From contig JAGDYQ010000001.1 of assembly GCA_021962125.1 (NCBI GenBank), forward strand, positions 5,516,061 through 5,580,060: DNA of 64,000 nt, given 5' to 3'. Made by a program: the position numbers and the translations under genes. The first letter of the stretch is position 1. Every line of letters starts with the position of its first letter. The stretch comes from Bulinus truncatus (taxonomy: Eukaryota). The notes under the pieces are model-generated. The model had not been told where the DNA came from. It searched no databases and saw only the letters and a program-made list of their open reading frames with translations. Positions 1 to 62,240 of the stretch are shown in pieces.

Positions 1-1400
1 ACACCCCTACACTATAATACAAAGGCTGCCCACACTTATATTACTTTTACTTACACCCATAGCCTACACTATAATACAATGGCTGCCCTCACTTATATTA
101 CTTTTACTTACACCCCTACACTATAATACAATGGCTGCCCTCACTTATATTACTTTTACTTACACCCATAGCCTACACTATAATACAATGGCTGCCCTCA
201 CTTATATTACTTTTACTTACACCCATAGCCTACGCTATAATACAATGGCTGCCCTCACTTATATTACTTTTACTTACACCCATAGCCTACACTATTATAC
301 AATGGCTGCCCTCCACTTATATTACTTTTACTTACACCCATAGCCTACACTATTATACAATGGCTGCCCACACTTAAATTACTTTTACTTACACCCATAG
401 CCTACACTATTATACAATGGCTGCCCACACTTATATTACTTTTACTTACACCCCTACACTATGATACAATGGCTGCCCTCACTTATATTACTTTTACTTA
501 CACCCATAGCATACACTATAATACAATGGCTGCCCACACTTATGTTATCTTTACTTACACCCCTACACTATAATACAATGGCTGCCCACACTTGTATTAC
601 TTTTACTTACACCCCTACACTATAATACAAAGGCTGCCCACACTTATATTACTTTTACTTACACCCATAGCCTACACTATAATACAATGGCTGCCCTCAC
701 TTATATTACTTTTACTTACACCCCTACACTATAATACAATGGCTGCCCTCACTTATATTACTTTTACTTACACCCCTACACTATAATACAATGGCTGCCC
801 TCACTTATATTATTTTTACTTACACCCATAGCCTACACTATTATACAATGGCTGCCCACACTTAAATTACTTTTACTTACACCCATAGCCTACACTATTA
901 TACAATGGCTGCCCACACTTATATTACTTTTACTTACACCCCTACACTATGATACAATGGCTGCCCTCACTTATATTACTTTTACTTACACCCATAGCAT
1001 ACACTATAATACAATGGCTGCCCACACTTATGTTATCTTTACTTACACCCCTACACTATAATACAATGGCTGCCCACACTTGTATTACTTTTACTTACAC
1101 CCCTACACTATAATACAAAGGCTGCCCACACTTATATTACTTTTACTTACACCCATAGCCTACACTATAATACAATGGCTGCCCTCACTTATATTACTTT
1201 TACTTACACCCCTACACTATAATACAATGGCTGCCCTCACTTATATTACTTTTACTTACACCCCTACACTATAATACAATGGCTGCCCTCACTTATATTA
1301 CTTTTACTTACACCCATAGCCTACACTATAATACAATGGCTGCCCAAACTTGTATTACTTTTACTTACACCCATACACTATAATACAATGGCTGCCCAAT
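1..1400. repeat. Satellite of about 61-bp monomer (CTACACTATAATACAATGGCTGCCCTCACTTATATTACTTTTACTTACACCCATAGC-like) in a 488-bp higher-order repeat. The array runs off the 5' edge of the window.
   Basis: Tandem repetition is visible directly. Identical ORF translations at 592-786 and 1080-1274 (offset 488 bp, 8 x 61) show the higher-order period. Monomer variants alternate cccctacac with cccatagcctacac. Confidence 0.9.
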
Positions 1401-2299
1401 ACAGTTTTTAGAGCCATGTGTGGCTCTCTCTTAAGTTTTGTGCAGCCTCTAATGAGCCAGTTTTTTTTCTATAATCGTTTCATTTCTTTAATTCACTCAT
1501 CTTACTGGTGCTGCTTTTTTTTAGTATTTTTGTTAAACAAAAAATTGGAATGAGTCTATCATTGACATTATGCAAGGGTACACCTGTTATAGCTTATAAT
1601 TTAATACTAAAGAATGAAATCATCCTCTGTTAGGAAAGGGCTTTCAGTCAAAATTTAATTTATCCCTCTCCTGTTTAGATCCACAGAAGGTGGGAGAGGT
1701 ATCATACCCCTACCTCCATCCCAGGTTGACCTTAGAAAAATCTGGTCACAGTTAAACATTGTAAAAAGTTTTTGTTGAAGTACACCAGCTGATGAATCAT
1801 TTACTATTTAAATCAAAAATTATTCTAGTCTTATTTCTTTTTTTTTGTCATGTTTAGTTCAGTAAACAAAATAAACAAAAGAACACTGAATATACAAATG
1901 TTTTGAATATTCCTAGCCTAGTTTTCTAGATTGATCATTTTCAGATTGATCATTGAATATTCCTAGTCTAGTATTTTAAAGGACATAATAATCTTTGAGC
2001 TTCAGAAGTTTAAACAAGAAAATAAACTAATTCAAAAGAAATTAAAAAAAAAATGAATCCAGCCACAGGTAAATATGTATTTAAGAAAAGTTGACTGTAA
2101 AATGTAAAGTTGGCAGCCTCTTAAATTGCCTCATTCTATAGACTGTAAAATGTAAAGTTGGCGGCCTCTTAAATTGCATCATTCTATAGACTGTTACTGA
2201 CCTGCTTAAAAAAACATGTACATAATGTACTTGCTTGAATACTTTCTATCTTTTTTTTTTAACCATACAGTCTTTATTTGAAATTTTCTGCTTATTTAG

Positions 2300-2399
2300 G
2301 ATGGCAGCTGGGAATTCGGAAAAGATCTTGATGAACTGATTGGGATAAACAGTGAAAAGTGTCTGAACATTCTTGAAAATAGTGGACTTAAGTCACTTG
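2300..2399 (+). CDS. Internal coding exon of 100 nt (phase 0 start, one extra base at the end) of an unidentified spliced gene. It encodes DGSWEFGKDLDELIGINSEKCLNILENSGLKSL(G).
   Basis: A polypyrimidine tract plus AG acceptor (ttctgcttatttag|GAT) and a strong donor (CTTG|gtaagg). The open frame joins in phase to the downstream exon at 3417. No in-frame Met, so the upstream exons lie before or within the satellite. Confidence 0.4.
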
Positions 2400-3416
2400 G
2401 TAAGGATTTTTAAATATACAAATACATGTTTCTTTTACACAATGTTTGCACAATCCCTTTAAATGCAGTGTCTACGGAAAAGGATGAAGTCTACTCCACC
2501 AACCCGCAATGACCCTCATGTTCCTTAGGGAGTCTGTTTGCACAGACATATTCAGTAATAAATCCCAACTCATATTTAGTCCCTTCCCTGGACACTGTTT
2601 GGAATTAAAATCATTAGAATTTCCTCTTCATGGGGCCTATTTGCTTATTTTGTAAGGCTTTTTAGTATGATTATGACCTCCCCCCCAGTATAATCATTAC
2701 CTGGCAGACTTCTGCAAACACTCCCTGTTCACAAAGGTGCTATGTACATGTTGCCCATGAATCCATTAATGTTTGCCTGCTGCTACTTGATGATAAAATT
2801 AAAGACATACCTTTAGTCAGAGGTTAAAGCTCACAAAGACTTTGACTTTGATAATTTTAATAATTTAACAAAAAGATAATGTTATAAAGTTGAAATTGCT
2901 AATAAACCTTATTTCAATTAATATATTATGTGAATTAAATTTTTTTATTATATAACAAAAAAAGATGGGTTACCCTGCCCCACAATTGTTTCAAAACACA
3001 CTATAGGGATCATAAGCTCTTTATGTATTTTATCACAATATAATCACAATATATATACTAAACCATAATTAGGGGAATGATAATTTGTCTTCCTTTTTAA
3101 TCCAATAGTTTATGCCCAACATTTTCTTAAACTTCCTTTCAATATTAAATCCACGTGGTGCTCTGTCTAAGTGGAATTCCCTGTGACATATTAAATAATT
3201 AAGAAAACTTTATTTGATCTTATACAAAATTAAGTAATTATTATAAAGATTAATTCTGCAAAGTTGGCCTTGTTTCTACAGTTATCTGAATCTGTGTATT
3301 TTAGTTTTATTTTAAAATAACAGAAATAGTAGTATTTTATTACTGAAGGAAAAAAAAAGTTTTATTAGGGTGCCGCTTAAAATTCAACTTTTTTTGTTAT
3401 CCGATTCTTTCAACAG

Positions 3417-3715
3417 GGCAAACAACTGAAAATACCATTAAAAGTTATCTGGCCACTCTGCTTGTGGTGTTTTCAATTTTTGAGTTGGTCTGGGAAGAAG
3501 TAGATTTCCAGTTTCCTTTATCAGTGAGCTCCCAGAAATTTGAAAATACTCTGCAGGGCTTGAGAAATCTTGGTCTGAATGAAGACGAGTTGGCAAGGAC
3601 GATCAGCGCATTGAGCTTGGCTTTGAACAAATGCCAGACTGTAGATAAAATGTATCCTGTGACTTGTAGCACTCTGGAGCTAGGGACCAGCTGGAATCAT
3701 GTTGTGATCTCCTGA
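3417..3715 (+). CDS. Terminal coding exon. After splicing (g + GG = Gly) it continues QTTENTIKSYLATLLVVFSIFELVWEEVDFQFPLSVSSQKFENTLQGLRNLGLNEDELARTISALSLALNKCQTVDKMYPVTCSTLELGTSWNHVVIS and ends at a stop codon. Product unknown.
   Basis: Acceptor tttcaacag|GG. The frame is continuous with exon 2300-2399 and with the listed ORF 3464-3715. The stop is followed by AT-rich sequence and a minisatellite, which is typical of a 3' UTR. I recognise no homology. Confidence 0.4.
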
Positions 3716-3726
3716 TGAGTTTTTTA

Positions 3727-4095
3727 GAATTTATTAGGATATTGCTCTCTTAGATGAGTCAATTGAATTAGTCATGTATTGCTCTCTTAGATGAGTCGAT
3801 TGAATTATCGATAAAATGCTCTCTTAGATGAGTTGATTGAATTAGTCATGTATTGCTTCTTTTTAATGAGTTGATTGAATTAGTCAGTGTATTGCTCTCT
3901 TAGATGAGTCGATTGAATTAGTCATGTATTGCTCTCTTAGACGAGTCGATTGAATTAGTCATGTATTGGGTTCTCTTAGATGAATTGATTAAATTAGTCA
4001 TGTATTGCTTCCTTAAATGAGTTGATTGAATTAGTCATGTACTGCTCTCTTTGATGAGTTGATTAAATTAGTCATGTATTGTTTTCTTAAAGTTG
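3727..4095. repeat. Minisatellite with a unit of about 40 bp (GCTCTCTTAGATGAGTCGATTGAATTAGTCATGTATT), about 9 copies, immediately 3' of the putative stop codon.
   Basis: Direct tandem copies with point variants, seen in the sequence. Confidence 0.85.
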
Positions 4096-4282
4096 GTCAA
4101 ATTTGTCATGTCTATTATGTCACAACAAAATTAGTTGAATGCTTATAACATAAAGCAGATATTCAATATGTTCCATTTATTTTTTTATAATGGTTATCCC
4201 TTTTCTCTGTTATATTTTTTCATTCATTTCCTTTTTTAAAATTTATATTTTGATTTTATTTTTTAGTAACATTTCTTCATAA

Positions 4283-4365
4283 ATTGGTATGATATTGTGT
4301 TGATTGTGAGTATGATATTGTGTTGATTGTGAGTATGATATTGTGTTGATTGTGAATTCACAAAA
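4283..4365. repeat. Short tandem repeat, 23-bp unit (TATGATATTGTGTTGATTGTGAG), 3 copies.
   Basis: Seen directly. Confidence 0.7.
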
Positions 4366-6116
4366 AATTATTTGAGAAACACTGTACATGTAATTATTTC
4401 ATAATTTTAAGTGTATGTTATCTTTATTTTTTTTGTTTCTGAAATATCATTGAAATAAATACAAAAAAAAAAAAATCCTCACTTGTCATCATTATTAAAT
4501 CTGTTATAAAGTTTTACAACTGTTATTGTACTAGTTATTACTTTAGAGTGCATTTTGATTTTGCTATGAATCTTATGGATTGAAAAATGACATTTGTTAC
4601 TTTAGAACTCATTTCGTTATGTAGAAGCTTTAAACTTATTATGCATTTAATGTCGTCTATTGTGTTGAAGCTTTTTAGACTGAAACTACGCAACTGAATT
4701 CATCAAAAAGATAATAATCCCCCTGAAACAGTTGACCTTATTAATCAATCAGTACATTTGGCAGTTGTGTCTAATGATTAGTGTTATTGGTTACGACAAG
4801 TGACGTTGTATTTTAAGAAAATATCCCTTGTAATGATAACATATTTTTGATGATTCACCAGTCAATGACTGAGGAGGACATTTTAAAAAAGATGTAACTT
4901 TATGACAAATGGTGTCATTTGTTAAGCTGACAAATTTTAATGTCAGATGACAACACAGAGTAAACTAAATTGTAATGTCAGATGACAACACAGAGTAAAC
5001 TAATGTAAACCGGGGGAAAAAATATTTTTTTTTGCCTTTTTAAACAAATTTTGTCAATCCATAATAAAATCATGTTCTCCTTATGGTAGTCTTTATTGCT
5101 GCCTCTTTTTTTGTATGTGATTACATTTACTGGTGTATAATTTTATCTTGTGTTTTAAATATATCATTATACAAATATATATATATATATTGGCCATACA
5201 TTTATTTTTGCATCATATTTCTTCTAATAAAGGTATCTGCAATAGGGTTATAACTGGTCATATTTTCTCTAAAAACGTGTCAGTGATATGATTATCTAAA
5301 ATTGGGCCAGTTCAATTAAAAATGTATTTTTAATTATACATTTTGCTGCAAATAAGAAGCCCTTTTTTTTAATAAAACCTTTTCGCTAAAATGGTAATAT
5401 ATGTATATGGAAAGAACATATAAATGTATTGATAAAGTGAGTTAATTATATTATTCTTTCATCATCTCAATTTTTATAGCCTGACCTACAGGAGTTAAAT
5501 GATTTATCCCTAGAGGACTAAGTTTGTGTGCCAGTAGTGTACAGCAAATATAGTCTAATTACTTCCGTCATCCATGTTTGAGCAATGAGTGGTTGTAAAA
5601 GAAGCAATGCAACATAAAAACATCAGTCAGTTTGGTTAATGTTTTTTTTTTCCCCCAAGGTTTAAAGGTGGTGACATCGAGTAAATATTGTTTTAATTAT
5701 AAATTATTGTCTAACTTCACCATTCCTATGCTAATAACCTGTCTGTAATAGATAAACTCAGCTATTTAATGAAAGAGGGTGAAATTTTAATGAGATATTT
5801 GACACAGGTTTTGTTCAATGCATTGGATAGTTAACTCTCAGTAATTTATGTTTGGGGAGGGGAATAATTATTTAATTAACAACTGTTTCAAGGATATGGT
5901 TTTTAAAAAATTATGACTCCTTATAACCTTATCGCTGATACAGCTTTTATTAATATTTGTTGTGATAATTGTTTTACAAGGATCGAGTTAATTAGATGAT
6001 ATATGTATAAAGGAAAATGTAGAAAGTGTTTTCAAAACTATTTAAGTAACAACTATTTAATTTTTGTTTTTGTATTTATACTCTTCATAGTAAATAAACA
6101 AAAATATTTATACAGT

Positions 6117-6760
6117 TGTCTACTGTTGTGTTATGAATGTTGAAAATATTTTTTCAGCTGTCTACTGTTGTGTTATGAATGTTGAAACATTTATTCAGCT
6201 GTCTGCTGTTGTGTTGTGAATGTTGAAAACATTTTTTCCCCAGTTCAAGAACATTTTATCAGTACTAGAACTTCTTAGTACTGGAAGAACATTTCCCCGC
6301 ATATAAAAAAATATCCTCAGTGCAGTAACATTTCCTCAGTACCACACTACAGCATTTATTCAGTAAGCTACTAGAACATTTTCTGATTACTAGAACATTT
6401 CCTAAGTACTGGAGCACTAGTTTTTATAAAATATTCTGATAATGTATAGTTCCAGTATCATAATATTTTTTCCCATAAATGCAACATTTCAACAGTATTA
6501 GAATATTTACTCAGTTCTGGGACATTTCTCATTACTGAAACAACATAACATCAGTACGGTGACAACATTCTCTATATACTGTAACATTAATATTTTTCTC
6601 AGTACGGTGACAACATTCTCTATATACGTAAACATTTTCTCAGTAGGATGACAACATTTATTTAGTACTAGAACATTAACTCGGTACCATAATATAACCA
6701 TAACATTTCCGCAGTACTATAACATTTCTTCAGTACCAGAACACTTCCATAACTGAATAA
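6117..6760. repeat. A 60-bp tandem repeat (TGTCTACTGTTGTGTTATGAATGTTGAAAACATTTTTTCAGC, about 2.5 copies), followed by a degenerate 15-20-bp repeat family of the form (AACATTTCCTCAGTACTAG)n.
   Basis: Seen directly. The ORF 6507-6701 falls inside it and is spurious. Confidence 0.7.
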
Positions 6761-7021
6761 AATGCTGAGCGATTAGGTGGAGTTCATAATTTGATGACTC
6801 AATTTTTCATCAGCAATGCCTCGACCACCATAAGTAAAATGGACTGCTTAAATCAGTCATGGCGAGGGGTAACTCAAGTGTTCTATCCATAGCCTTAGCT
6901 AGCTTTTGTTGCGCGCTGTACGTGTTACCTTTTTTTTTAAATCCTCCTGCCCAGTTTGAAAATTACAAATACATTTAACGGCGGTCTTTCGGTGTCTCTT
7001 CCTAGCTCGGCGCCCTGTGAC

Positions 7022-7592
7022 GCCGTTCAACCTGTTGTTCCCCTTCCTACGCCACTAGTTCTAACCGTCAAATGGCACTCAGCGACCTGTTGTTCCCTTC
7101 CTACGCCACTAGTTCTAACCGTCAAATGGCACTCAGCGACCTGTTGTTCCCTTCCTACGCCACTGGTTCTAACCGTCAAATGGCACTCAGCGACCTGTTG
7201 TTCCCCTTCCTACGCCACTAGTTCTAACCGTCAAATGGCACTCAGCGACCTGTTGTTTCCCTTCCTACGCCACTAGTTCTAACCGTCAAATGGCACTCAT
7301 AACCTGTTGTTCCCCTTCCTACGCCACAGGTTCTAACCGTCAAATGGCACTCAGCGACCTGTTGTTCCCCTTCCTACGCCACTGGTTCTAACCGTCAAAT
7401 GGCACTCAGCGACCTGTTGTTCCCCTTCCTACGCCACAGGTTCTAACCGTCAAATGGCACTCAGCGACCTGTTGTTCCCCTTCCTACGCCACTAGTTCTA
7501 ACCGTCAAATGGCACTCAGCGACCTGTTGTTCCCTTCCTACGCCACTGGTTCTAACCGTCAAATGGCACTCAGCGACCTGTTCTCCCCAGTG
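7022..7592. repeat. Tandem repeat, 58-bp unit (CCTGTTGTTCCCCTTCCTACGCCACTAGTTCTAACCGTCAAATGGCACTCAGCGA), about 10 copies.
   Basis: Seen directly. ORF 6956-7276 is its translation and is spurious. Confidence 0.9.
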
Positions 7593-7984
7593 TCCCGTAG
7601 CACCTCTACCGGTGTGTCACTCACAAACCCAGGGTAAAAAGACAACTGATGGCCCGTTCCAAGTACAGACATCATATGATTGGGCCCTTTTTGTGTGTTA
7701 TCGCTCATGTTTCTTGTCTGATGTACACATTTACTGGGACTATTTCATCTCGACTTGTGGACAATTGTTAGAGAAATGCTTCCAACCGTTGCTCGAAAAA
7801 CATGTACTACTGCTGTTCGCACCCTTTTTTTTTTTTAGTTCTGAGCGAAATGTCTGTTCTTTCCAAATACATGGCAGGGATTTGTCATGGTGATCCTTAT
7901 ACACATTCCTATGATTCTTAGATGTATTCATTTGATTCTTGGAATTTATCAACGACTCTGATCAAGACGAGGCAAAACAAAACA

Positions 7985-8292
7985 TGCCCTGTGGTTGGTC
8001 TGTGTCGGACATTGGCTCTCTAGTAGTATAGGCCCGTCTGTGGTTGGTCTGTGTCGGACATTGGCTGTCTAGTAGTATAGGCTCGTCAGTGGTTGGTCTG
8101 TGTCGGACATTGGCTTTCTAGTAGTATAGGCTCGTCTGTGGTTGGTCTGTGTCGGACATTGGCTCTCTAGTAGTATAGGCTCGTCTGTGTTTGGTCTGTG
8201 TCGGACATTGTCTCTCTAGTAGTATAGGCTCGTCTGTGTTTGGTCTGTGTCGGACATTGTCTTTCTAGAAGTATAGGCTCGTCTGTGTTTGG
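7985..8292. repeat. Tandem repeat 'A', unit of about 60 bp (TGGTTGGTCTGTGTCGGACATTGGCTCTCTAGTAGTATAGGCTCGTCTG), 5 copies. It is interrupted by an element and resumes at 9065-9140.
   Basis: Seen directly. The array resumes in register after the 772-bp insertion. Confidence 0.85.
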
Positions 8293-9064
8293 GTATCCGG
8301 ACAAAACCCCCAGCGGACAAAACCCCCACGGACACAACCCCCAGCGGACAAACCCCCCAGCGGACATAACCCCCAGCGGACATAACCCCCAGCGGACATA
8401 ACGCCCAGCGGACAAAACCCCCAGCGGACAAAACCCCCACTGGACCTCTCCCCTTTTTTTGTTATAAAATCTATTTTTTGGCCATCGTTTTTATTAAAAA
8501 ATGTAATATATAATACCTGGATGAAAATATATATATAAATATATATAAATACGTATTTTTAAGGGAATTTGTTAGCCCGTCGAGCCACAGTGATAAAAGG
8601 CAATCTCTTGTTAACTTTACATCAACAGGAATCTTATCTTACAAGGTAAAAAAACAACTAATTTAAAGGTTTTAGCCCAAGGTCAATACTGGCCGTATCT
8701 TTATTCTACCTTTTAATTCTCGCGCCAGGCACACATTATATAGCAGACGGTAAAACAAACAACGTAAGAACCACAGTGGTCGAAAGCCAATTCTTTATTA
8801 AGGTTAACAGCATAGAAACATGCCTAATGATATACTGTGTTGACAGACATGATATCTGTTATGTCGAAAAACATTTCCCTTAGTCCATGGTCAACTTCGT
8901 ATATATAGAAGTATTAATAATATCGACTTATATTCAATCTTAATATTTTGGGGGTTTTGCCCACTGGGTGTTTTGTCCGCTGGGTGTTTTGTCCGCTGGG
9001 GTTATGTCCGCTGGGGTTTTTGTCCGCTGGGGGTTTTGTCCGTGGGGGTTTTGTCCTACACTCC
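8293..9064. mobile_element. Foldback-like non-autonomous DNA element (772 bp). The terminal inverted regions are built from a 17-bp subrepeat (CCCCAGCGGACAAAAC), 8293-8450 forward and 8940-9060 reverse-complement, around a 490-bp AT-rich core. It is flanked by a 9-bp TSD TGTGTTTGG at 8284-8292 and 9065-9073.
   Basis: Inverted subrepeat blocks are seen directly. The host tandem array A is interrupted and resumes with the same 9 bp duplicated. The inner TIR core GGACAAAACCCC matches on both ends. 9-bp TSDs and TIRs built from tandem subrepeats are characteristic of Foldback and Mutator-like elements. Confidence 0.6.
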
Positions 9065-9239
9065 TGTGTTTGGTCTGTGTCGGACATTGGCTTTCTAGTA
9101 GTATATGCTTGTCTGTGGTTAGTCTGTGTTAGACATAGGCTCTCTCTCTCTTCCCCCCCCTCTCTCTCTTTCTCGTAGCATGCAGCAGGTGAGTCAGCAA
9201 TACACCACATGATCGACCCAGCGTGGGCAAGATGAACCA

Positions 9240-10262
9240 TGATACTAGGTCTAGTCTATACAACATGGAAATCTAGCCTTTACTACATGGACGTCTACGT
9301 CTAGTCGATACAACATGGACGTCTACGTCTAGTCTATAGAACAAGGACGTCTACGTCTATACAACCTGGACGTCTAGGTCTATACAACCTGGACGTCTAC
9401 GTCCATACAACCTTGACGTCTAAGTCTATACAACCTGGACGTCTAAGTCTAGTCTATACAACCTGGAAGTCTAGTCTATACAACATGGACGTCTACTTCT
9501 ATCACTACAACTTGGACGTCTACGTGTAGTCTATATAACCTGAACATGTACGTCTGGAACCTGGAAGTCTAGTCTATACAACCTGGACGTCCACGTCTAG
9601 TCTATACAACTTGGGCGTCTACGTGTAGTCTATACAACATGGACGTCTACGTCTAGTCTATACAACGTGGACGCCTACATCTAGTCATTACAATATGGAC
9701 GTCTACGTCTAGTTTATACAACATGGACGTCTACGTCTAGTTTATACAACCTGAACGTGTACGTCTAGTCTATACAACGTGGACGCCTACATCTAGTCAT
9801 TACAATATGGACGTCTACGTCTAGTTTATACAACATGGGTGTCTACGTCTAGTCTATACAACCTAGACGTCTACGTCTAGTTTATACAACATGGGTGTCT
9901 ACATCTAGTCTATACAACCTAGACGTCTACGTCTAGTATATACAACATGGACGTCTACGTCTAGTTTATACAACCTGAGCGTGTACGTCTAGTCTACACA
10001 ACCGGAACGTCTACGTCTAGTCTACACAACCTTGTCGTCTACGTCTACTCTACACAACTGAGACGTCTAGTCTAGTCTACACAACCTGGACGTCTGCGTC
10101 TAGTCTACACAACCTGGACGTCTGCGTCTAGTCTACTCAACCTGGACGTCTATGTCTAGTATATACAACCTGGACGTCTACGTCTAGTATATACAACATG
10201 GACGTCTACGTCTAATCTATAAAATCTGGTCGTCTACGTCAGCTCTGTACAATCTAAACATC
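9240..10262. repeat. Minisatellite with a unit of about 28-30 bp (CTAGTCTATACAACATGGACGTCTACGT), about 35 copies.
   Basis: Seen directly. Confidence 0.9.
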
Positions 10263-10299
10263 TTCATCAGGTTTATACAAAGTATACTTTTACTCAATG

Positions 10300-10640
10300 C
10301 CAATAATATCTAGACTTAACATTTAGCTCACTCCTAAAACAGGTATATTTAAAAGGTATACTCGACTGGTCTACCCAGCTTTTGGCCAACTCTAACACCA
10401 GGCAACTCAACATTTAGCCCACTGCTACAAGGGGTCTACTCAACAGATCAAGTCTACTCAACATTTAGCCTACTTCTAGTTTATTCAAAAGGCCTACTCA
10501 ATGTTTAACCTGCAACAGGTCTACTCACCATTAGCCCACAACAGGGCCACTAAACATTTAGTTTACTCCTGCAACAGGTCTACTCACCATTTAGCTTACT
10601 CCTACAACATGTCTACTCTAATTTATCGACTTCTAAAACC
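10300..10640. repeat. Degenerate 17-bp repeats (CTACTCAACATTTAGCC family). The segment 10395-10460 is the inverted partner of 12610-12672.
   Basis: Seen directly. The reverse complement of 10395-10460 matches 12610-12672 over about 60 bp. Confidence 0.6.
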
Positions 10641-10644
10641 AGGG

Positions 10645-10915
10645 CCGGCCTTCAAGGTTGTTAACGATACTCTAAAATTGTATCGTCAATACCGATACCA
10701 CTACTTCATAAAAATAGTATCGCCAATACCAATACAAATACTCAAGTAAAAATGTATTGCCAAAATCGACACTGATACAATACCAATACTTTTGAGAACA
10801 ACAAAATGTTTTTATTTAAAATATAATGAGTGCAAGTTTCTCAAGTTTTTAGAATACATTGTCAAAGCACAATTTTAATGCTAATCACTTCACAACTTGG
10901 CAGCACGTAAGAAGA
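10645..10915 (-). mobile_element. Dispersed repeat copy 1, the sub-terminal or 3' non-coding region of a hAT-family element. The same 270 bp recurs at 27525-27990, inside the hAT-N element.
   Basis: There is about 90% identity to 27525-27654 plus 27837-27990. It lies directly downstream, on the minus strand, of the hAT dimerisation-domain ORF. Confidence 0.6.
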
Positions 10916-11198
10916 CAATCATTTCAAAATGATCATTGCTTAGCCTAGAACGTATAGGCATAAAAACACGCCCACCCAATGAAACCAGGCGCTCAACTGC
11001 AGCACTAGCCGTAAGTCCAGTGTTAAGTTGCAGGTATAGTTTCTTAATTCTTGGGTAGACTGCTAATGACAGCATTTTTGATGAGTTATCTTCAAGATAT
11101 CTGTCTACTTCAGCAGAACTGTTACTATTAAGCAATTCGTCCTGGTTAAAGTTAGTAGCTATCTGGAACAAACAAAATCGCATCTTTGGCTGCGGCAA
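10890..11198 (-). pseudogene. C-terminal fragment of a hAT transposase (dimerisation / hATC domain): ...LSLAVYPRIKKLYLQLNTGLTASAAVERLVSLGGRVFMPIRSRLSNDHFEMIVFLRAAKL.
   Basis: It matches the hATC consensus (YP.L..LA...L.IPASSA.SERVFS.GGRI...R.RL....VE.LIFL) residue by residue. There is no upstream catalytic region in frame, so the copy is truncated. Confidence 0.65.
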
Positions 11199-11841
11199 TC
11201 AGCACGTATCTCGTTACTCCCGGTGACACTAGGTGGAATTTTACTTACGATTTTGTTGCAAAATTACATGGTTTACTATCCAATCCAGAATTAGAAGTTT
11301 AACTTGATATGGTGTTTGATAACATTGACATCAAGCGACTGAATGCGCAACAGAAAATATTCAGAGCAGAATACATTGAAGCATCTGATCCATTGTGTTG
11401 TGGACTGGGCATTAGGGAAGGAAAAAGTAATATTGGATTTAGCTATTTGCTGCCCACACTAACCATTATAAAAGGTAAATTACAGGTAATGATTTTTCGA
11501 CATAAACACCCTCTCACGGTGTGTGAACCCCTTGCCAGATCTGTTATTGATTGCATTAATGCGCGATTCGATTTTATATTTTACTGATCCAGAGGCTAAA
11601 CTGACATCAGTGGTCAATCCAAAATTTAAAACCAACTGGACAGACAACTTGGATCACAAGGCAGAAGTTGTAAAACCTTAAAGCGTGCCTGCAGTGCACT
11701 AAGTGCATTTCCCATTCATTTTACTCGGCAGTGTGGTGCAGCTTTAGTTCAGTCAACAGTACAGATATCTGAATCTACATATTGTTTTTTTGCTTGTTTT
11801 ACTGCACGGCGGCAGAACCAGGATGAATAGCTTAGTAATAA

Positions 11842-12583
11842 CTAGGGAGCGACCGATAATCGGATTGGAATCGGACCGATATTGGCACTATCGGTTAATA
11901 TCGGATCGGCCGATTTTTGTAGGGAGCGACCGATAATCGGACCGATATTGGCACTATGGATTAACTATCGGACCGGCCGTTTTTTGGCTGCCGATACATT
12001 GTTTTTTTTTTTCCACAAATCTAGTAAATCTAAACTGGTTTTGGTTTACAGAGTTAAAGTTTACTTACAGACTTCCAATTAACTGTTCACCTGAGTGAAG
12101 TGATTTACAGATATAATAAAGTTTTTTTAATTTTTCAAACTTTTTAAAAAATCTGCTACAAGTAAATTCAGTAAAAATTACATAGATTAACGAAGAAAAT
12201 TATTTTAATTTCATCACAACTTTCACAAGCTAGTGAAGTTACAATTAACAATTAATACATTTTTACTTTTTTAGTTTGCCATTAATTTTTTAAACTTTAT
12301 CTTACTTTTTGTGTACAAGTAAAAAGTAAAAACAACAAATTGTTTGCTATAAGTTTAATTTTAAACAATAAACATGCAGATTTCTGAGATTATGCAGGCA
12401 TGGTTTAGTTTCTGACTTCGGTCTTCCGGTCTGTCTTTTCAAATCTTTTGTTCTTCTAATCTTCTTCATCTGCAAGACACCCTTTCATTAATAGCAGAAT
12501 ATCGGTATCGGTTTCGGCAAAAATGCTGGGGAAAAATATCGGTATCGGACTATCGGTAAAAAGGCATATCGGTCGCTCCCTAG
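11842..12583. mobile_element. MITE-like element (742 bp) with TIR CTAGGGAGCGACCGATAATCGG (the left TIR is duplicated in tandem at 11842 and 11921). It is rich in ATCGGT/ACCGAT motifs and flanked by a 3-bp TSD TAA (11839-11841 and 12584-12586).
   Basis: A perfect 16-bp TIR is seen directly. A TAA/TTA 3-bp TSD is the PIF/Harbinger hallmark. There is no coding capacity. Confidence 0.6.
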
Positions 12584-12839
12584 TAAACACGATGAAATCG
12601 CCATATTTGTGTTAGCTGTGAAGCTAAATGTTGAGTAGACTTGATCTGTTGAGTAGACCCGTTGTAGCAGTGGGCTACCGCAGCCACGATATAACTTTGC
12701 AGAAACAGGTAAGATATTTCGTTTCTCTTTCATATTTATGAATAACTTAATTCAAATACTACCTATTACCATAAGCAAATGTCAAGTAATTGTCTTTTTT
12801 TATGGCAATAAAAATAAATATTTAAAAACAGACCGTTCA

Positions 12840-13859: not shown

Positions 13860-13985
13860 GTAAGCAGGGGTGGGGTGTCGGCCAAAATATTTGCCGACAC
13901 CGACTCCGGTGTCGGCATTCCATCAACCGCCAACACCGACACCGTTGTCGGTTTTCTAAAATCCACCGACACCGGAGGGGGGGGG
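13860..13985. repeat. Short palindromic repeat of the CCGACACCG family: GGTGTCGG ... GCCGACACCGACTCCGGTGTCGGC ... CCGACACCGGAG followed by a G12 run.
   Basis: Seen directly. It is related to 17405-17560 and, inverted, to 62110-62240. The centre is a perfect 10-bp stem (GCCGACACCG/CGGTGTCGGC) with a 4-nt loop. Confidence 0.45.
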
Positions 13986-16400: not shown

Positions 16401-17404
16401 ATGTGCTTAAAAGCAGTCTAGTAAGTCATGTAAAAATTCAGTGTGAAATTGAAACCGAGCGTCAAACTGCGCGATATGAGAAATCAAAAAGGAAAAGGTG
16501 GGGGAACTTTTTTCGATTAAAAAAAAAATAATGTTGCTACTGTCATCTACATATAATTGTTCCTCGAATGTAAGGGGTTTCAGTTTCGTTACGAAAAAAA
16601 ATGAAAATAGTTATCACCCTAGTGTAGGCTTATGCACAAATATTGGTCAAGATTATTATTAACGATTGCCTACGTCAGCAAGTAACTGCAAAGTACAGAC
16701 ATATCCAACAACACTAGAGCAATGATGCTTGGAAGTTTATAAGTGGCTACTCAGAGAATGCAGAATGCTGAAATAAAATCACGGCAAGGGCTACAGACAA
16801 TGATAAAAGATGGTTGTTCCAGAACTATTTTTTAGAAAAGAGAGAGACGTATGAAGACAATACATACTTAACAGTTAATAGAGGAAGGAATCGTTATTTT
16901 ACACCCGAATTAAACCTGAAATATGTATTGAGAAAGTTTGTATTGTAATAGGTGGTGGGGGGCTCCAGCTACGGACTGAACTTTAATGTAGTGTCATTGT
17001 GACATAGATTGGTAATGTTTCATTCTGGCTGAGATAAATTAAGCTGTGGAGAGTGTGATCATTCTTTGAAGTTCTAAAAGACTTGAATAGGTTTGTGTGT
17101 AATCTTTCTCCAACATGGATATTGATAGAGATGCAAACTAAAAATTTCGCATGATTTACAATGATTGAGTGAATAACAGAGTGAACATATCCAGTAGCCT
17201 TCCTATCTGCTTTCAGTCATAATTCTGTTATTGTTGACAAGTTGTTGTAATGTAGAGAATCTCGCTTTGAAAAATAATACAATCGTTGATAAACAGATTT
17301 ACCAAGTTTTTATTTAAAAAGAAAAGAATAATTTAAGAAAGCTTTAAATTAAAGATTGGCTAAGAACTATCTGACGTTGTTCTGGATTATTTAATAAAAG
17401 TTCT

Positions 17405-17570
17405 AGTATTTTTATTTGGGGGGGGGGGGGAGTTTTCGCGCCGACACCGAACCGACTCCGGACAAAGTACAAATGCCGACACCGACTCCGGACAAAATAC
17501 AAATACCGACACCGACACCGGACAAAATACAAATACCGACACCGACACCGGCAAAAACTACGGACACCGG
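17405..17570. repeat. G13 run followed by about 30-bp repeats containing CCGACACCGAC(T/A)CCGGACAAAATACAAAT, 4 copies. It has an inverted counterpart at 62110-62240 and belongs to the same family as 13860-13985.
   Basis: Seen directly. The overlapping ORFs 17344-17687 are translations of this repeat. Confidence 0.7.
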
Positions 17571-17574
17571 CTCC

Positions 17575-17700
17575 CCAGCCCTGGTTGTAAGCTGTCCTGC
17601 TTGTGAAGAGGAATATTGTGACCCTCCAACAGAAGAATGGATCCAGTGCTGTAAATGCCCAGAGTGGTGACATGAGGACTGTTCCAATTATGAAAATGGC
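17575..17700 (+). other. Short Cys/His-rich coding-like fragment: SCPACEEEYCDPPTEEWIQCCKCPEW(TGA)HEDCSNYENGIFICDNY. It sits in the left-arm-specific 530-bp block (17575-18110).
   Basis: The C-x2-C ... W-I-Q-C-x-K-C ... H-x2-C ... C spacing is reminiscent of zf-CW or PHD-like fingers. It is interrupted by an in-frame TGA and has no upstream non-repeat ORF, so it is most likely a relic. Confidence 0.25.
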
Positions 17701-18109: not shown

Positions 18110-18302
18110 CTGTCTGGCCCTTCCTGCTAACACATATGTCTATGTATGTACTCTCTGGCCATAAACAGCTCCCTGCTAACAAACATGTCTATATATGTAC
18201 TCTCTGGCCATAAACAGCTCCCTGCTAACAAATATGTCTATATATGTACTCTCTGGCCATAAACAGCTCCCTGCTAACAAATATGTCTATATATGTACTG
18301 TC
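18110..18302. repeat. 49-bp tandem repeat (CTGGCCATAAACAGCTCCCTGCTAACAAATATGTCTATATATGTACTCT), split by the 3.1-kb insertion, continuing at 21389-21600 and mirrored at 61640-62060.
   Basis: Seen directly. Confidence 0.85.
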
Positions 18303-21388: not shown

Positions 21389-23576
21389 TACTACTGCCTG
21401 GCCATAAACAGCTCGCTGCTAACAAATATATCTATATTTGTACTGTCTGGCCCACCCTGCTAACAAATATGTCTATATATGTACTGTCTGGCCATAAACA
21501 GCTCCCTGCTAACAAATATGTCTATATACGTACTCTCTGGCCATAAACAGCTCCCTGCTAACAAACATGTCTATATATGTACTGTCTGGCCCTCCCTGAT
21601 AACAAATAAAATACGTTAAGAAGAATTAAACACAACACTCTATGATCATTTCTATAGAAATATTTTAATCAATATTTCCCCCATTATAACCCGTTCTTAT
21701 TCGAATAGATTTCATTATTTTCATAGCCATGAAAAACTTTAATTTTTTTAAATGGTTCTTTCTGTCCTGTTTATTTTTACTGCACGCATTTGACTGTTTT
21801 GCCATCTCTACCAAAGCTTCTGCAAACTTGATGTAATTTCCACAAACTGGGGCTTTCTGATTGGGGCCGTATCATGCTATTTGAGCATGTGACATTGTTG
21901 ACCCCCTGTAAAGTAAATAAGCAGAAATTTACAACATAGACGATATAATGTGTTGCTAACCTAGTTGAATTCAGCATATGCATTTAACTAACATTTATAA
22001 TTAATTGGCATGTATTGATTTCTGATTTTATTTTTATTGTATTGTCAGTTCAATTGACCATTGTCCAAAGAAAAATACCACAAACAGCTACTATTTAAAC
22101 ACTAATACTAAGGGGAACCAGTGTTACCACTAAAACAATGAAAAAGCCAAGTTAGGACCATTAAAGAATCCAATAAAACCCAAGGAAGTTTTAAACCTTT
22201 TTTAATAATAGAAAAATATTTCATAAAACATAATGTAGTTCAATCGTATGTTTTTTTAACCCAAAAAGAGATTCTCCTAGCCCCTGAGTACAATACTCCC
22301 CCGTTTTTCCAGACAATAAATCAACGGGTCAGTACTGTTCAGTTCTCCCCCTTTTCCTCACCATAAATGGTCCAAGTGAGGAGAGGGGGGCACTTTTAAA
22401 ATACAGAAAAACAATACAAGCAAAAAAAAAAATTCAAGATTTTTAGCTTATATCTCCATTTCTCAAATCAGTGTTCGAAAACCCAAGATTCTGGGGAAAA
22501 AACAACTAGGTAAACCACTTTTTACAGCGAAAAGGAAAACCTTAATTAGCGACATTTTTTTTTATCTCCATTTTAAGGAGGATGAATAAAATTCGAGACT
22601 TCATCATTAGGGTGGGTAAAAAAAATTTTTTTGGAGTTGGGAATTTGAAACACATTCAAAAAGTTGCCCATGATCCTACTGATTGTAAAAATGTAAAATT
22701 TGTAAAAATCAGATAATGTCTTCCACTCCCAACTTTAAATGGGGTACGGGGAAAAAATGCACTATGTCTAAAAAAAAAACATTTTTTTTTTAATTTTTAG
22801 ATACTAGAATATGTCAATAATAACAATGAATTAACTATATTGCAGAAAAAAATATTTAGATCAATTACAATGTATTTTCAGAATGTTAATCATTCAGAAA
22901 CTTCAATAATTTAAAAACTTAAAAGTCATTTTTCTCTGAAAAAATATTTTTGACAATGTGCTTTACTGTAGCAAGGAAATCTCAAAAACTTCATGTCAGA
23001 TTTTGATAAAACTTCTAATTTATATTTAGCAGAGGTGCATTTATATAATGTCAGAGGCTTTTCAAGAAATTTTAAGTCCTTTTTTTTTTTTTGGCAATTT
23101 TTTTAATTTTCAGATTAGCATTTTTTTCTTATTTTCACAATAAAAAAATGTTAAATTCATTAAAAAAATATTTATTACATTATCAAAAAAAGTACTCTGA
23201 CATTCCCTAAAGTAAGCTTTCCTAATTATAAAAATGTACATTTTGTTTGAATCAGTCTATAAATATTTCAGAAATATTTGCCACAAAAAGGTCATAAATT
23301 TCAAGATGGCGGCATGCCACACCCACAAATATCAATGTTTTAATATTTTTTTTTGCACAAAATTATTTTTAAATATACTATATCATTACTAAGATATTAA
23401 AATGACTTAAACTTTAATAAAAAAAGATTTTGCTTTGACCCGGGTACCCCCCCCCCCAATGTAAGATATTTTACAACATTTAGAATGTTTGGTATAAGTA
23501 ATATAAAATTGTAAAATCTATAGATCGTTCATGCAAAATATACAATGTACATAAGAATAATACTGTTTACGGATTG

Positions 23577-25649: not shown

Positions 25650-26045
25650 TTCAGCTGGACATAAACCTGGGCAAACTGTTGATGATATGTTAGAGCGTGA
25701 TGTCTGTCAATGTTGTCATAGAGCTTGGCAAACCGTTAGTTGATGTTATGTAAGCGTTTGATGTCTGTCAATGTTGACATACAACTGGTCAAACTTTTGA
25801 TGATATGTTAGAGCGTGATGTCTGTCAATGTTGACATACAACTGGTCAAACTTTTGATGATATGTGAGAGTGTGATGCCTGTCAATGTTGACATACAGCT
25901 GTACAAACTGTTGATGATATGTGAGAGTGTGATGTCTGTCAATGTTGTCATAGAGCCTGGCAAACCGTTAGTTGATGTTATGTAAGCGTTTGATGTCTGT
26001 CAATGTCGACATACAACTGGGCACACTGTTTGTTGATATGTGAGA
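25650..26045 (-). repeat. Short inverted array of about 7 monomers of the main 58-61-bp satellite in reverse-complement orientation. It abuts the left IR arm and mirrors the array/right-arm junction at 59866.
   Basis: The reverse complement of 25650-25700 matches 59830-59866 (catatcatcaacagtttgcccaactga). The monomers match the boundary variants found at 31600-31700. Confidence 0.85.
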
Positions 26046-26047
26046 AT

Positions 26048-26240
26048 GTGATGTGCACGCTCATCTCGCCACTTACAAAAAAGCAGAACAAAGAATGCCT
26101 CACCTCTCTCGCCACTTACAAAAAAGCAGAACAAAGAATGCCTCACCTCTCTCGCCACTTACAAAAAAGCAGAACAAAGAATGCCTCACCTCTCTCGCCA
26201 CTTACAAAAACGCAGAACAAAGAATGCCTCACCCTCTCTT
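26048..26240. repeat. 38-bp tandem repeat (CTCTCGCCACTTACAAAAAAGCAGAACAAAGAATGCCTCACC), 5 copies.
   Basis: Seen directly. ORFs 26003-26329 are its translations. Confidence 0.85.
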
Positions 26241-61639: not shown

Positions 61640-62060
61640 CGTATTTTATTTGTTATCAGGGGGGCCAGACAGTACATTTATAGATATATTTGTTAGCAGG
61701 GAGAGCCAGACAGTACATTTATAGATATATTTGTTAGCAGGGAGGGCCAGACAGTACAAATATAGATATATTTGTTAGCAGGGAGCTGTTTATGGCCAGA
61801 GAGTACGTATATAGACATATTTGTTAGCAGGAAGCTGTTTATGGCCAGACAGTACATATATAGACATATTTGTTAGCAGGGAGGGCCAGACAGTACATTT
61901 ATAGATATATTTGTTAGCAGGGAGGGCCAGACAGTACATTTATAGATATATTTGTCAGCAGGGAGCTGTTTATGGCCAGAGAGTACGTATATATACATAT
62001 TTGTTAGCAGGGAGCTGTTTATGGCCAGACAGTACATATATAGATATATTTGCTAGAATT
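61640..62060. repeat. 49-bp tandem repeat (reverse complement of CTGGCCATAAACAGCTCCCTGCTAACAAATATGTCTATATATGTACTCT), about 8.5 uninterrupted copies. It mirrors the split array at 18110-18302 and 21389-21600.
   Basis: Seen directly. Confidence 0.85.
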
Positions 62061-62109: not shown

Positions 62110-62240
62110 TGTCAGAGCTGTGGAGCCGGCGTTGGTGTCGGTGGTGTCAGTAGTTTTTGCCGGTGTCGGTGTCGGCGTTTGTACTTTGCCCGATGTCGGT
62201 GTCGGTATTTGTACTTCTTCCGGAGTCGGTTCGGTATCGA
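62110..62240. repeat. Inverted copy of the CCGACACCG-family repeats (GGTGTCGGTGTCGG...).
   Basis: Reverse complement of 17440-17560. Confidence 0.7.

What the first reader, a model, noticed from the sequence alone, without database searches (positions are those of the whole stretch)
8284..9073. Foldback-type element with a 9-bp TSD inserted into a 60-bp tandem array
The host tandem array A is interrupted precisely and resumes in register with the 9 bp TGTGTTTGG duplicated. The insert has 120-160-bp terminal inverted regions made of 17-bp subrepeats and a non-coding core. This is the architecture of Foldback elements, which make 9-bp TSDs. The family is poorly catalogued outside a few taxa, and an intact example with a clean empty-site inference is useful for defining it.
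Basis: partly seen in the sequence, partly recalled or inferred. Interest (0 to 1): 0.55.

Follow-up and report, generated by a model that had tools for sequence, protein, structure and literature searches.

The report
Non-autonomous Foldback-like Mutator transposon in minisatellite
A 772-bp non-coding mobile element with repeat-built inverted arms has inserted into a 49-bp tandem array, duplicating 9 bp, and belongs to a known kind (Foldback-like Mutator/Phantom transposons, laid out like the nematode Tm1 family), so it is a tidy but ordinary example.

Summary
The core observation is real, but several numbers were wrong. The host array has a 49-bp period, not 60. The arm subrepeats are 16 bp, not 17. 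The duplicated flank is 10 bp (CTGTGTTTGG), so this copy alone leaves the boundaries ambiguous by one base.

I translated the subrepeat array and used it as a protein query. That recovered related elements in other public assemblies. Three are full-length and carry a FLYWCH + MULE (Mutator-like, Phantom-type) transposase between arms of 15-16-bp subrepeats. One of these is in the gastropod Gigantopelta aegis. A fourth, decayed copy ends in GGTATCC-GGACAAA, matching the window's left terminus.

All six complete elements, including the window's, have 9-bp target-site duplications: five perfect, one 8/9. Aligning 13 termini places the window element at 8292-9063, with TSD CTGTGTTTG.

The layout is 9-bp TSD, a 7-nt end motif that differs between the two ends, GGA, then tandem subrepeats. 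This matches the published Tm1 Mutator/Foldback family of root-knot nematodes.

The window copy has no ORF over 35 aa and no transposase nearby, so it is non-autonomous.

Verdict: the Foldback/Mutator reading is supported. It is a new member of a known kind and of modest interest. The source organism and copy number could not be determined.

The parts
7989..8282 (.). Host minisatellite, left part: six 49-bp monomers (consensus CTGTGGTTGGTCTGTGTCGGACATTGGCTCTCTAGTAGTATAGGCTCGT)
   Evidence: TRF gives period 49, 96% matches. The 49-nt rows stay in register.
8283..8291 (.). Left target-site duplication CTGTGTTTG (first 9 bases of the seventh monomer)
Evidence: The sequence is identical at 9064-9072. 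The register was chosen from the family terminus alignment.
8292..8298 (+). 7-nt end motif of type A1, GGTATCC, which has no inverted counterpart at the other end
   Evidence: The same or a near-identical motif lies next to GGACA subrepeats in L011 (GGTATCC), L005 and L014 (GGTAACC), L012 (GGTATAC) and L013 (GGTAAAC).
8299..8440 (+). Left arm: 9 tandem subrepeats of 16 bp (one of 15), consensus GGACAAAACCCCCAGC
8441..8947 (.). Non-coding AT-rich middle domain
   Evidence: GC is 0.18-0.38. The longest ORF is 35 aa. It has no similarity to any fetched locus, no Rfam family and no tRNA.
8948..9056 (-). Right arm: 7 subrepeats in inverted orientation, colinear with left-arm units 2 to 8
   Evidence: Identity is 90.8% over 109 columns. 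The 15-nt unit GGACAAAACCCCCAC occupies matching positions in the two arms.
9057..9063 (-). 7-nt end motif of type A2: TACACTC on the + strand, GAGTGTA read inward
   Evidence: Related motifs are GGGTGTA (L012), GAATCTA (L004, L005, L006, L014), GAATCCA (L013) and GAATCCC (L007, L008).
9064..9072 (.). Right target-site duplication CTGTGTTTG
9073..9144 (.). Host minisatellite resumes in register: the rest of the seventh monomer plus a degenerate partial eighth
   Evidence: Empty-site reconstruction.

Best explanation
Bases 8292-9063 are a non-autonomous, MITE-like DNA transposon of the Mutator superfamily, with a Foldback-like terminal architecture.

Each end has a 7-nt motif that differs between the two ends: GGTATCC at one, GAGTGTA at the other. 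Each motif is followed by a tandem array of 16-bp GGACAAAACCCCCAGC units, 9 on the left and 7 on the right. The middle is non-coding.

The element was inserted by cut-and-paste into a 49-bp minisatellite. A transposase supplied in trans made a 9-bp staggered cut, and repair produced the CTGTGTTTG duplication. That enzyme is most likely a FLYWCH zinc-finger + MULE DDE transposase of the Phantom type. This is the protein found between the same kind of termini in related elements.

Shown here: the anatomy, the clean empty site, the 9-bp TSD across the family, and the association of these termini with FLYWCH-MULE genes.

Inferred: that the 16-bp subrepeats are multiple binding sites for the transposase's N-terminal FLYWCH (WRKY-GCM1-fold) domain; that unequal arm lengths arise by subrepeat gain and loss; and that recombination between the inverted arms explains why the two end motifs swap sides relative to the core in different copies.
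For: Anatomy of the window copy:
- The empty site reconstructs perfectly.
- The subrepeat is confined to the insert, with 15 matches against 0.09 expected.
- The arms are colinear and 90.8% identical.
- The foldback fold has z = -11.5.
- No ORF exceeds 35 aa.

Related non-coding copies:
- A protein query made from the translated subrepeats found related non-coding copies.
- These share the end motifs: GGTAACC...TAGATTC, against the window's GGTATCC...TACACTC.

Transposase-bearing relatives:
- L009 keeps a FLYWCH N-terminus inside such an element (Pfam E = 3e-12).
- L011 has a decayed FLYWCH + MULE ORF followed by subrepeats that end in GGTATCC-GGACAAA read inward. This matches the first 14 bases of the window's left end. 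The stitched ORF passes both Pfam cut-offs: FLYWCH 46.9 bits and MULE 32.8 bits.
- L012 (468 aa), L013 (Gigantopelta aegis, 524 aa) and L016 (496 aa) are full-length elements with an uninterrupted transposase ORF between subrepeat arms.
- The DDE residues and the FLYWCH W, C and H residues are invariant in a 7-protein alignment.

TSD and boundaries:
- The TSD is 9 bp in 6 of 6 complete elements.
- In the alignment of 13 termini, the flank is variable up to the G that corresponds to window position 8292 and to the complement of 9063.

Literature:
- Tm1 has the same layout and a Phantom-type FLYWCH + MULE transposase (PMC3169594).
- MULE TSDs are 8-11 bp (PMC6446971).
Against: - Only one copy is visible in 64 kb, and I could not search the source genome. 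Mobility, copy number and the existence of a matching autonomous partner in this genome are therefore unshown.
- No transposase homologue lies in the window (tblastn).
- The middle domain shares nothing with the relatives. Only the ends tie the window copy to the family.
- The relatives' subrepeat differs by one base (CCCCCTGC versus CCCCCAGC).
- Because the host is itself a tandem repeat, the apparent TSD could formally be an insertion plus a 39-40-bp deletion.
- Two relatives, L009 and L004, lack a recognisable TSD or have a degenerate end.
- Placement of the transposase in the Phantom clade rests on domain architecture, not on a phylogeny.
Confidence: 0.85

Rival explanations
1. A Foldback-like element of another superfamily (a P/Galileo-type or hAT-type MITE) whose resemblance to the FLYWCH-MULE elements is convergent.
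For: Foldback structure has evolved in unrelated superfamilies, such as Galileo in the P superfamily (PMC3169594 discussion; PMC4079207). The 10-bp duplicated stretch in the window would also allow an 8-bp TSD.
Against: The 7-nt end motif plus the first subrepeat matches the end next to a FLYWCH-MULE ORF in L011. Six of six complete family members have 9-bp TSDs. Galileo makes 7-bp TSDs, on my recollection of the Galileo literature rather than on the papers read here.
Confidence: 0.06
2. A local rearrangement: an inversion-duplication of a neighbouring 16-bp satellite that was never mobile.
For: The region is packed with unrelated tandem arrays. Long 16-bp arrays similar to the subrepeat exist elsewhere, for example L001 with 8.4 kb.
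Against: The subrepeat occurs nowhere else in the window. The boundaries are sharp, flanked by a direct repeat, and restore the host array exactly. The same terminal design recurs at unrelated loci in other genomes, each with its own 9-bp TSD.
Confidence: 0.02
3. A real transposon insertion, but the 9-bp 'TSD' is an artefact of the repetitive host: insertion without that duplication, plus loss of 39-40 bp of one monomer.
For: In a 49-bp array, any 9-10-bp overlap can be produced by a deletion of (49 minus overlap) bp.
Against: This needs an extra event of exactly the right size. The family makes 9-bp TSDs at non-repetitive sites.
Confidence: 0.03

Closest known systems
Tm1 Mutator/Foldback family of root-knot nematodes (Gross & Williamson 2011, PMC3169594)
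   Same: The layout matches piece for piece:
- 9-bp TSD (8-10 bp in Tm1).
- 7-bp end motifs that differ between the two ends and lie outside the inverted repeat.
- GGA immediately internal to the end motif.
- A variable number (1-9) of short tandem units forming arms of unequal length.
- Many MITE-like non-coding derivatives.
- An autonomous form of about 2.6 kb encoding a FLYWCH + MULE transposase of about 490 aa.

Sources: searches compared.
   Different: The motif sequences are not demonstrably homologous. Tm1 has CGGTTAA / CCTACCC / CGATTCAGTATCGC. Here they are GGTATCC / GAGTGTA / GGACAAAACCCCCAGC. The units are 16 bp rather than 14. No GA-rich motif D is present. The host phylum differs: the only named host of a full-length relative fetched here is a gastropod, and other named transposase homologues come from a second gastropod, crustaceans, a tick and a sea urchin.
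Phantom group of Mutator-like elements (Marquez & Pritham 2010, as summarised in PMC3169594 and PMC6446971)
   Same: The relatives' transposase has an N-terminal FLYWCH finger plus a MULE DDE domain. TSDs are 8-10 bp. The termini are structurally plastic and include Foldback-like ones. The group is distributed across invertebrates.
   Different: I made no phylogeny with canonical Phantom sequences. The window copy itself encodes nothing.
Drosophila Foldback (FB) elements
   Same: Long inverted arms built from short tandem repeats, arms of unequal length, a non-coding or variable middle, and a 9-bp TSD. Most foldback elements are assigned to the Mutator superfamily (PMC4079207). The 9-bp TSD for FB itself is from my own knowledge of the FB literature.
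   Different: I could make no sequence comparison with FB arms or the FB4 protein. Here the arms are short (116-149 bp) and built of a single unit type.
Galileo and Tetris (foldback-like elements of Drosophila)
   Same: Internally repetitive TIRs. The tandem repeats in Galileo's TIRs carry extra transposase-binding sites. Tetris repeats seeded satellite DNA. This is a model for how the 16-bp units may work, and for the 8.4-kb 16-bp array seen in L001.
   Different: Galileo belongs to the P superfamily, with a THAP transposase and a shorter TSD. The Tetris transposase is unknown.

Membership tests
Foldback-like elements (structural class) | Long terminal inverted arms composed of short tandem subrepeats, able to fold back | tested here: met
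   There are 9 and 7 units of 16 bp. The arms are 90.8% identical over 109 columns. The ssDNA fold has z = -11.5.
Foldback-like elements (structural class) | Arms of unequal or variable length and a non-coding middle domain | tested here: met
   The arms are 149 and 116 nt. The 507-bp core has no ORF over 35 aa.
Mutator superfamily (MULE) | TSD of 8-11 bp, typically 9 | tested here: met
   The window has a 9-bp TSD lying within a 10-bp duplicated stretch. The TSD is 9 bp in 6 of 6 complete family members. The 8-11-bp range is from PMC6446971.
Mutator superfamily (MULE) | Mobilised by a DDE transposase with a MULE domain that carries the same termini | tested here: inconclusive
   Met in relatives. 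L011 has MULE at 32.8 bits against a cut-off of 27.6, with a GGTATCC-GGACA end. L012, L013 and L016 are full-length. It is not shown for the source genome: there is no transposase in the window and the genome could not be searched.
Phantom group of MULEs | N-terminal FLYWCH zinc finger on the transposase | tested here: met
   FLYWCH scores E = 3e-12 in the L009 and L011 ORFs. P0025 and P0035 carry PF04500 + PF10551. The W, C, C, H and H residues are invariant. This holds for relatives only.
Phantom group of MULEs | Phylogenetic placement of the transposase inside the Phantom clade | not tested
   No canonical Phantom, Muta1 or Tm1-A sequences were available to the tools.
Tm1 family (Meloidogyne) | Layout: TSD, then an asymmetric 7-bp end motif, then GGA, then tandem short units | tested here: met
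   Searches compared with PMC3169594.
Tm1 family (Meloidogyne) | Sequence of motifs A1 CGGTTAA, A2 CCTACCC and C CGATTCAGTATCGC | tested here: not met
   The window motifs are GGTATCC, GAGTGTA and GGACAAAACCCCCAGC. By my position-by-position reading they match Tm1's no better than chance. The window element has the same design as Tm1 but is not a member of that family.
Drosophila FB (FB4 / FB-NOF) | Sequence homology to FB arms or to the FB4-encoded protein | not testable with these tools
   No reference sequences could be reached, and the collections searched are not annotated for Drosophila transposable elements.
Galileo-type (P superfamily) foldback elements | THAP-domain P-like transposase and a 7-bp TSD | tested here: not met
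   The associated transposase is FLYWCH + MULE and the TSD is 9 bp.

The most novel reading that the evidence does not exclude
The GGACAAAACCCCC-subrepeat elements may be a widespread lineage of FLYWCH-MULE (Phantom/Foldback) transposons in marine invertebrates that has not been catalogued. Their terminal design is a 7-nt asymmetric end motif, GGA, and 14-16-bp units. That design may be conserved with nematode Tm1 because the units are arrayed FLYWCH-binding sites. The same units may repeatedly seed kilobase-scale 16-bp satellites, such as the 8.4-kb array in L001.
Probability: 0.3. Interest if true: 0.45.

Novelty: new member of a known kind. Interest (0 to 1): 0.3.

Why it matters
This is a clean, datable insertion with an unambiguous empty site. 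Together with the relatives found here, it documents a FLYWCH-MULE lineage with Foldback-like ends outside insects and nematodes.

That helps repeat annotation. Such elements are easily mislabelled as 16-bp microsatellites or minisatellites, or as unknown inverted repeats.

It also supports two existing views. One is that most Foldback-like elements are Mutator relatives. The other is that short tandem units in their arms are functional modules. No current understanding changes.

Tried and rejected
- An exact scan of JGI metagenome contigs for the window's subrepeat dimer found nothing. A degenerate pattern found three loci of the sister family.
- Rfam and tRNA scans of the window found nothing.
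- Pfam on the four longest window ORFs gave nothing above cut-off.
- tblastn of seven family transposases against the window gave only noise, E >= 1. No partner lies nearby.
- Exact look-up of eight window ORFs in the protein collection found none. The source organism stays unidentified.
- blastn of the element against all fetched loci matched only the subrepeat arms. The core is unique.
- I asked whether the 8.4-kb 16-bp satellite in L001 ends in a family terminus. It does not, so its link to the transposon is only a resemblance.
- I compared the Tm1 end-motif sequences with these. The design is the same but there is no convincing sequence homology.
I rejected them in favour of 9 bp from the family alignment.
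- The Phantom paper (Marquez & Pritham 2010) is not held in the library. I cite it only through PMC3169594 and PMC6446971.

Full report
**1. What is in the sequence**

A tandem array with a 49-bp period occupies 7989-8292. TRF gives 6.2 copies at 96% matches. The period is not 60 bp as the finding states.

The array stops after the first ten bases of a seventh monomer (CTGTGTTTGG) and resumes at 9064 with the same ten bases. Removing 8293-9073 yields uninterrupted 49-nt rows that run on for about 1.5 more monomers.

The duplicated stretch is 10 bp. This copy alone is compatible with a TSD of 8, 9 or 10 bp.

**2. Anatomy of the insert**

- The left end reads GGTATCC, followed by nine tandem units of GGACAAAACCCCCAGC. 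Eight units are 16 bp and one is 15 bp (8299-8440).
- The right end, read inward on the other strand, is GAGTGTA followed by seven such units (9056 back to 8948).
- The unit is 16 bp, not 17.
- At up to 3 mismatches the unit has 15 matches in the 64-kb window, all inside the insert. Chance expectation is 0.09.
- The two arms are colinear and 90.8% identical over 109 columns. They share the position of the 15-nt unit and the run of ATAAC-type units. The left arm has one extra outer unit.
- The 507-bp middle (8441-8947) is AT-rich. Its longest ORF is 35 aa. It matches no Rfam family or tRNA.
- As single-stranded DNA the element folds arm-to-arm at -161 kcal/mol, z = -11.5 against shuffles.

**3. 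Finding relatives**

The public DNA collections available are not eukaryote-oriented, and an exact scan for the window's unit dimer found nothing.

I therefore translated the subrepeat array and used it as a protein query. A 16-bp period cycles through all three frames every 48 nt. The query was aimed at spurious ORFs called on similar arrays in assemblies.

This returned short 'proteins' from ENA assembly ERZ25084518. Their contigs (L004-L006, L014, L015) carry 650-750-bp non-coding elements with arms of GGACAWAACCCCCTGC units. Their ends, GGTAACC...TAGATTC, are very close to the window's GGTATCC...TACACTC.

A degenerate DNA pattern then found three JGI or ENA contigs (L007-L009).

**4. The transposase**

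- L009 is a deletion derivative that keeps the start of an ORF directly abutting the right arm. The ORF has a FLYWCH zinc finger (Pfam E = 3e-12).
- Searching with that ORF found longer copies.
- In L011 a decayed ORF runs to a stop codon about 70 bp before a subrepeat arm. Read inward, that arm ends in GGTATCC-GGACAAA, matching the first 14 bases of the window's left end.
- Stitched across two frameshifts, the L011 ORF passes both Pfam cut-offs: FLYWCH 46.9 bits and MULE 32.8 bits.
- The stitched protein has 266 homologues at E <= 1e-10. Named ones come from Gigantopelta aegis (56% identity), Nucella lapillus, Oratosquilla, Palaemon, Homarus, Ixodes and Lytechinus.
- Three full-length elements with an uninterrupted transposase ORF were retrieved. 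L012 is 2604 bp with a 468-aa ORF. L013 is from a G. aegis chromosome, 2372 bp with a 524-aa ORF. L016 is about 2.35 kb with a 496-aa ORF and 15-bp units of a different sequence, CGGTCWTTTGCCCCC.
- Each of the three has subrepeat arms and 7-nt end motifs that differ between the two ends.
- The MDG(T/N)F, D(F/Y)E and CE.WN motifs (the DDE triad) and the FLYWCH W/C/C/H/H residues are invariant across seven proteins.
- The L014 and L015 MITEs retain the last codons of the transposase (...GYCIR.K*). This shows they are internal-deletion derivatives.

**5. TSD and boundaries**

Every complete element has a 9-bp direct repeat immediately outside the 7-nt end motifs:

| Element | Left / right repeat |
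|---|---|
| L012 | GTTGCTGAC / GTTGCTGAC |
| L013 | GCTTATACA / GCTTATACA |
| L014 | TATTTACTC / TATTTACTC |
| L016 | GGGAGCTTA / GGGAGCTTA |
| L005 | TAATTACAT / TAATTACAC |
| window | CTGTGTTTG / CTGTGTTTG |

In the alignment of 13 termini the flank is unconserved up to an invariant G. Then come the 7-nt motif and an invariant GGA.

This places the window element at 8292-9063 (772 bp).

Two relatives deviate. L009 has no TSD, and L004 has a degenerate left end plus a tandem duplication of its right end with 81 bp of flank. Tm1 shows the same kinds of exception.

**6. How it most likely works**

*Shown:* the element is a discrete insertion with a 9-bp TSD. Its termini belong to a family whose autonomous members encode a FLYWCH + MULE DDE transposase. 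The window copy encodes nothing, and no transposase lies within the window.

*Inferred:* it was mobilised in trans by such a transposase through cut-and-paste, with a 9-bp staggered target cut. The tandem 16-bp units are probably arrayed binding sites for the FLYWCH domain. This is by analogy with the extra transposase-binding sites in the tandem repeats of Galileo's TIRs. Unequal arm lengths would reflect unit gain and loss.

The same inner-arm sequence carries an A1-type end in L005 but an A2-type end in L009. This fits recombination between the inverted arms flipping the core relative to the end motifs. Tm1 has comparable recombinants.

**7. Comparison with known families**

The closest described system is Tm1 of Meloidogyne. 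It has 9-bp TSDs, asymmetric 7-bp end motifs outside the inverted repeat, GGA, 1-9 tandem units of about 14 bp, MITE-like derivatives, and a 2.6-kb autonomous copy encoding a 496-aa FLYWCH + MULE protein assigned to the Phantom subclass of Mutator.

The design is the same here, but the motif sequences are not demonstrably homologous. The window element works like Tm1 without being a member of that family.

Domain architecture and TSD fit the Phantom group. I ran no phylogeny. Membership of Drosophila FB proper could not be tested. Galileo-type (P superfamily) identity is excluded by the transposase and the TSD.

**8. Rivals**

- A local inversion-duplication of satellite is excluded by the absence of the unit elsewhere in the window, the sharp boundaries, and the recurrence of the design at unrelated loci.
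- An insertion plus a 39-40-bp deletion that mimics a TSD needs an extra event of exactly the right size.
- Convergence with another superfamily is unlikely given the matching terminus next to a FLYWCH-MULE ORF.

**9. Limits**

The source organism is unidentified. I could not measure copy number, search for an autonomous partner in the same genome, or look for an allelic empty site. Only the ends, not the core, link the window copy to the family.

**10. Verdict**

The Foldback/Mutator interpretation is supported and sharpened to a Phantom/Tm1-like MULE with Foldback-like ends. It is a new member of a known kind and of modest interest.

Noticed in passing
window 10415-12677: A 2.26-kb segment is bounded by 55-nt inverted repeats that are 98% complementary (TAGCCCACTGCTACAAGGGGTCTACTCAACAG...). 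It is probably another DNA transposon.
   Followed up: no
window 17380-17600 and 62120-62290 (also 13894-13974): Two copies of a repeat lie in opposite orientation. They carry 30-bp subrepeats (CCGACACCGACNCCGGACAAAATACAAAT). Each sits next to a 49-bp array (18123-18299, 21416-21608; inverted at 61647-62056). Together they bracket the large satellite. This may be another subrepeat-ended element or a large inverted structure.
   Followed up: partly
window 31636-59850 and 25658-26054: A 28-kb satellite has a 61-bp unit (472 copies, 90% matches). TRF rows of a 27-29-bp sub-period recur along it, hinting at higher-order periodicity. A short 57-bp array 5.6 kb upstream is the same repeat in inverted orientation (82-91% complementary).
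   Followed up: no
window 1-10300: At least six unrelated tandem arrays are packed within 10 kb, with periods of 57, 37, 42, 55, 49 and 28 bp. The transposon landed in a satellite-dense region.
   Followed up: no
L001 16-8475 and L002 (ENA ERZ3058081 / ERZ3062800): An 8.4-kb array of a decayed 16-bp satellite, GGTTTTGTCCACTGGG, is one base away from the window's subrepeat (78-85% identity by blastn). It has no family terminus at its end. It may be an example of arm units seeding a satellite, as reported for Tetris, but this is unproven.
   Followed up: partly
L004 6027-6345: The right end of a MITE, together with 81 bp of flanking DNA, is tandemly duplicated. Two identical GTCCTAGATTC ends sit at 6107 and 6266, with the same flank.
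   Followed up: no
L009 1270-2443: A deletion derivative keeps the FLYWCH N-terminus fused directly to the right arm. It has no TSD (GGGGATATA versus AGATGAAAC). Its left end motif is A2-type, whereas L005 has A1-type on the same inner-arm sequence. This suggests recombination between arms.
   Followed up: partly
L010 10001-15372: In this copy the FLYWCH ORF is immediately followed by ORFs with endonuclease and reverse-transcriptase hits (Exo_endo_phos below Pfam's cut-off; RVT_1). I take this as a non-LTR retrotransposon inserted into the transposase gene.
   Followed up: no
L016 2506-2633 and 4734-4847: A full-length element encoding a FLYWCH + MULE transposase uses a quite different 15-bp unit (CGGTCWTTTGCCCCC). 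It keeps the same design and a 9-bp TSD. The unit sequence evolves while the architecture stays the same.
   Followed up: partly
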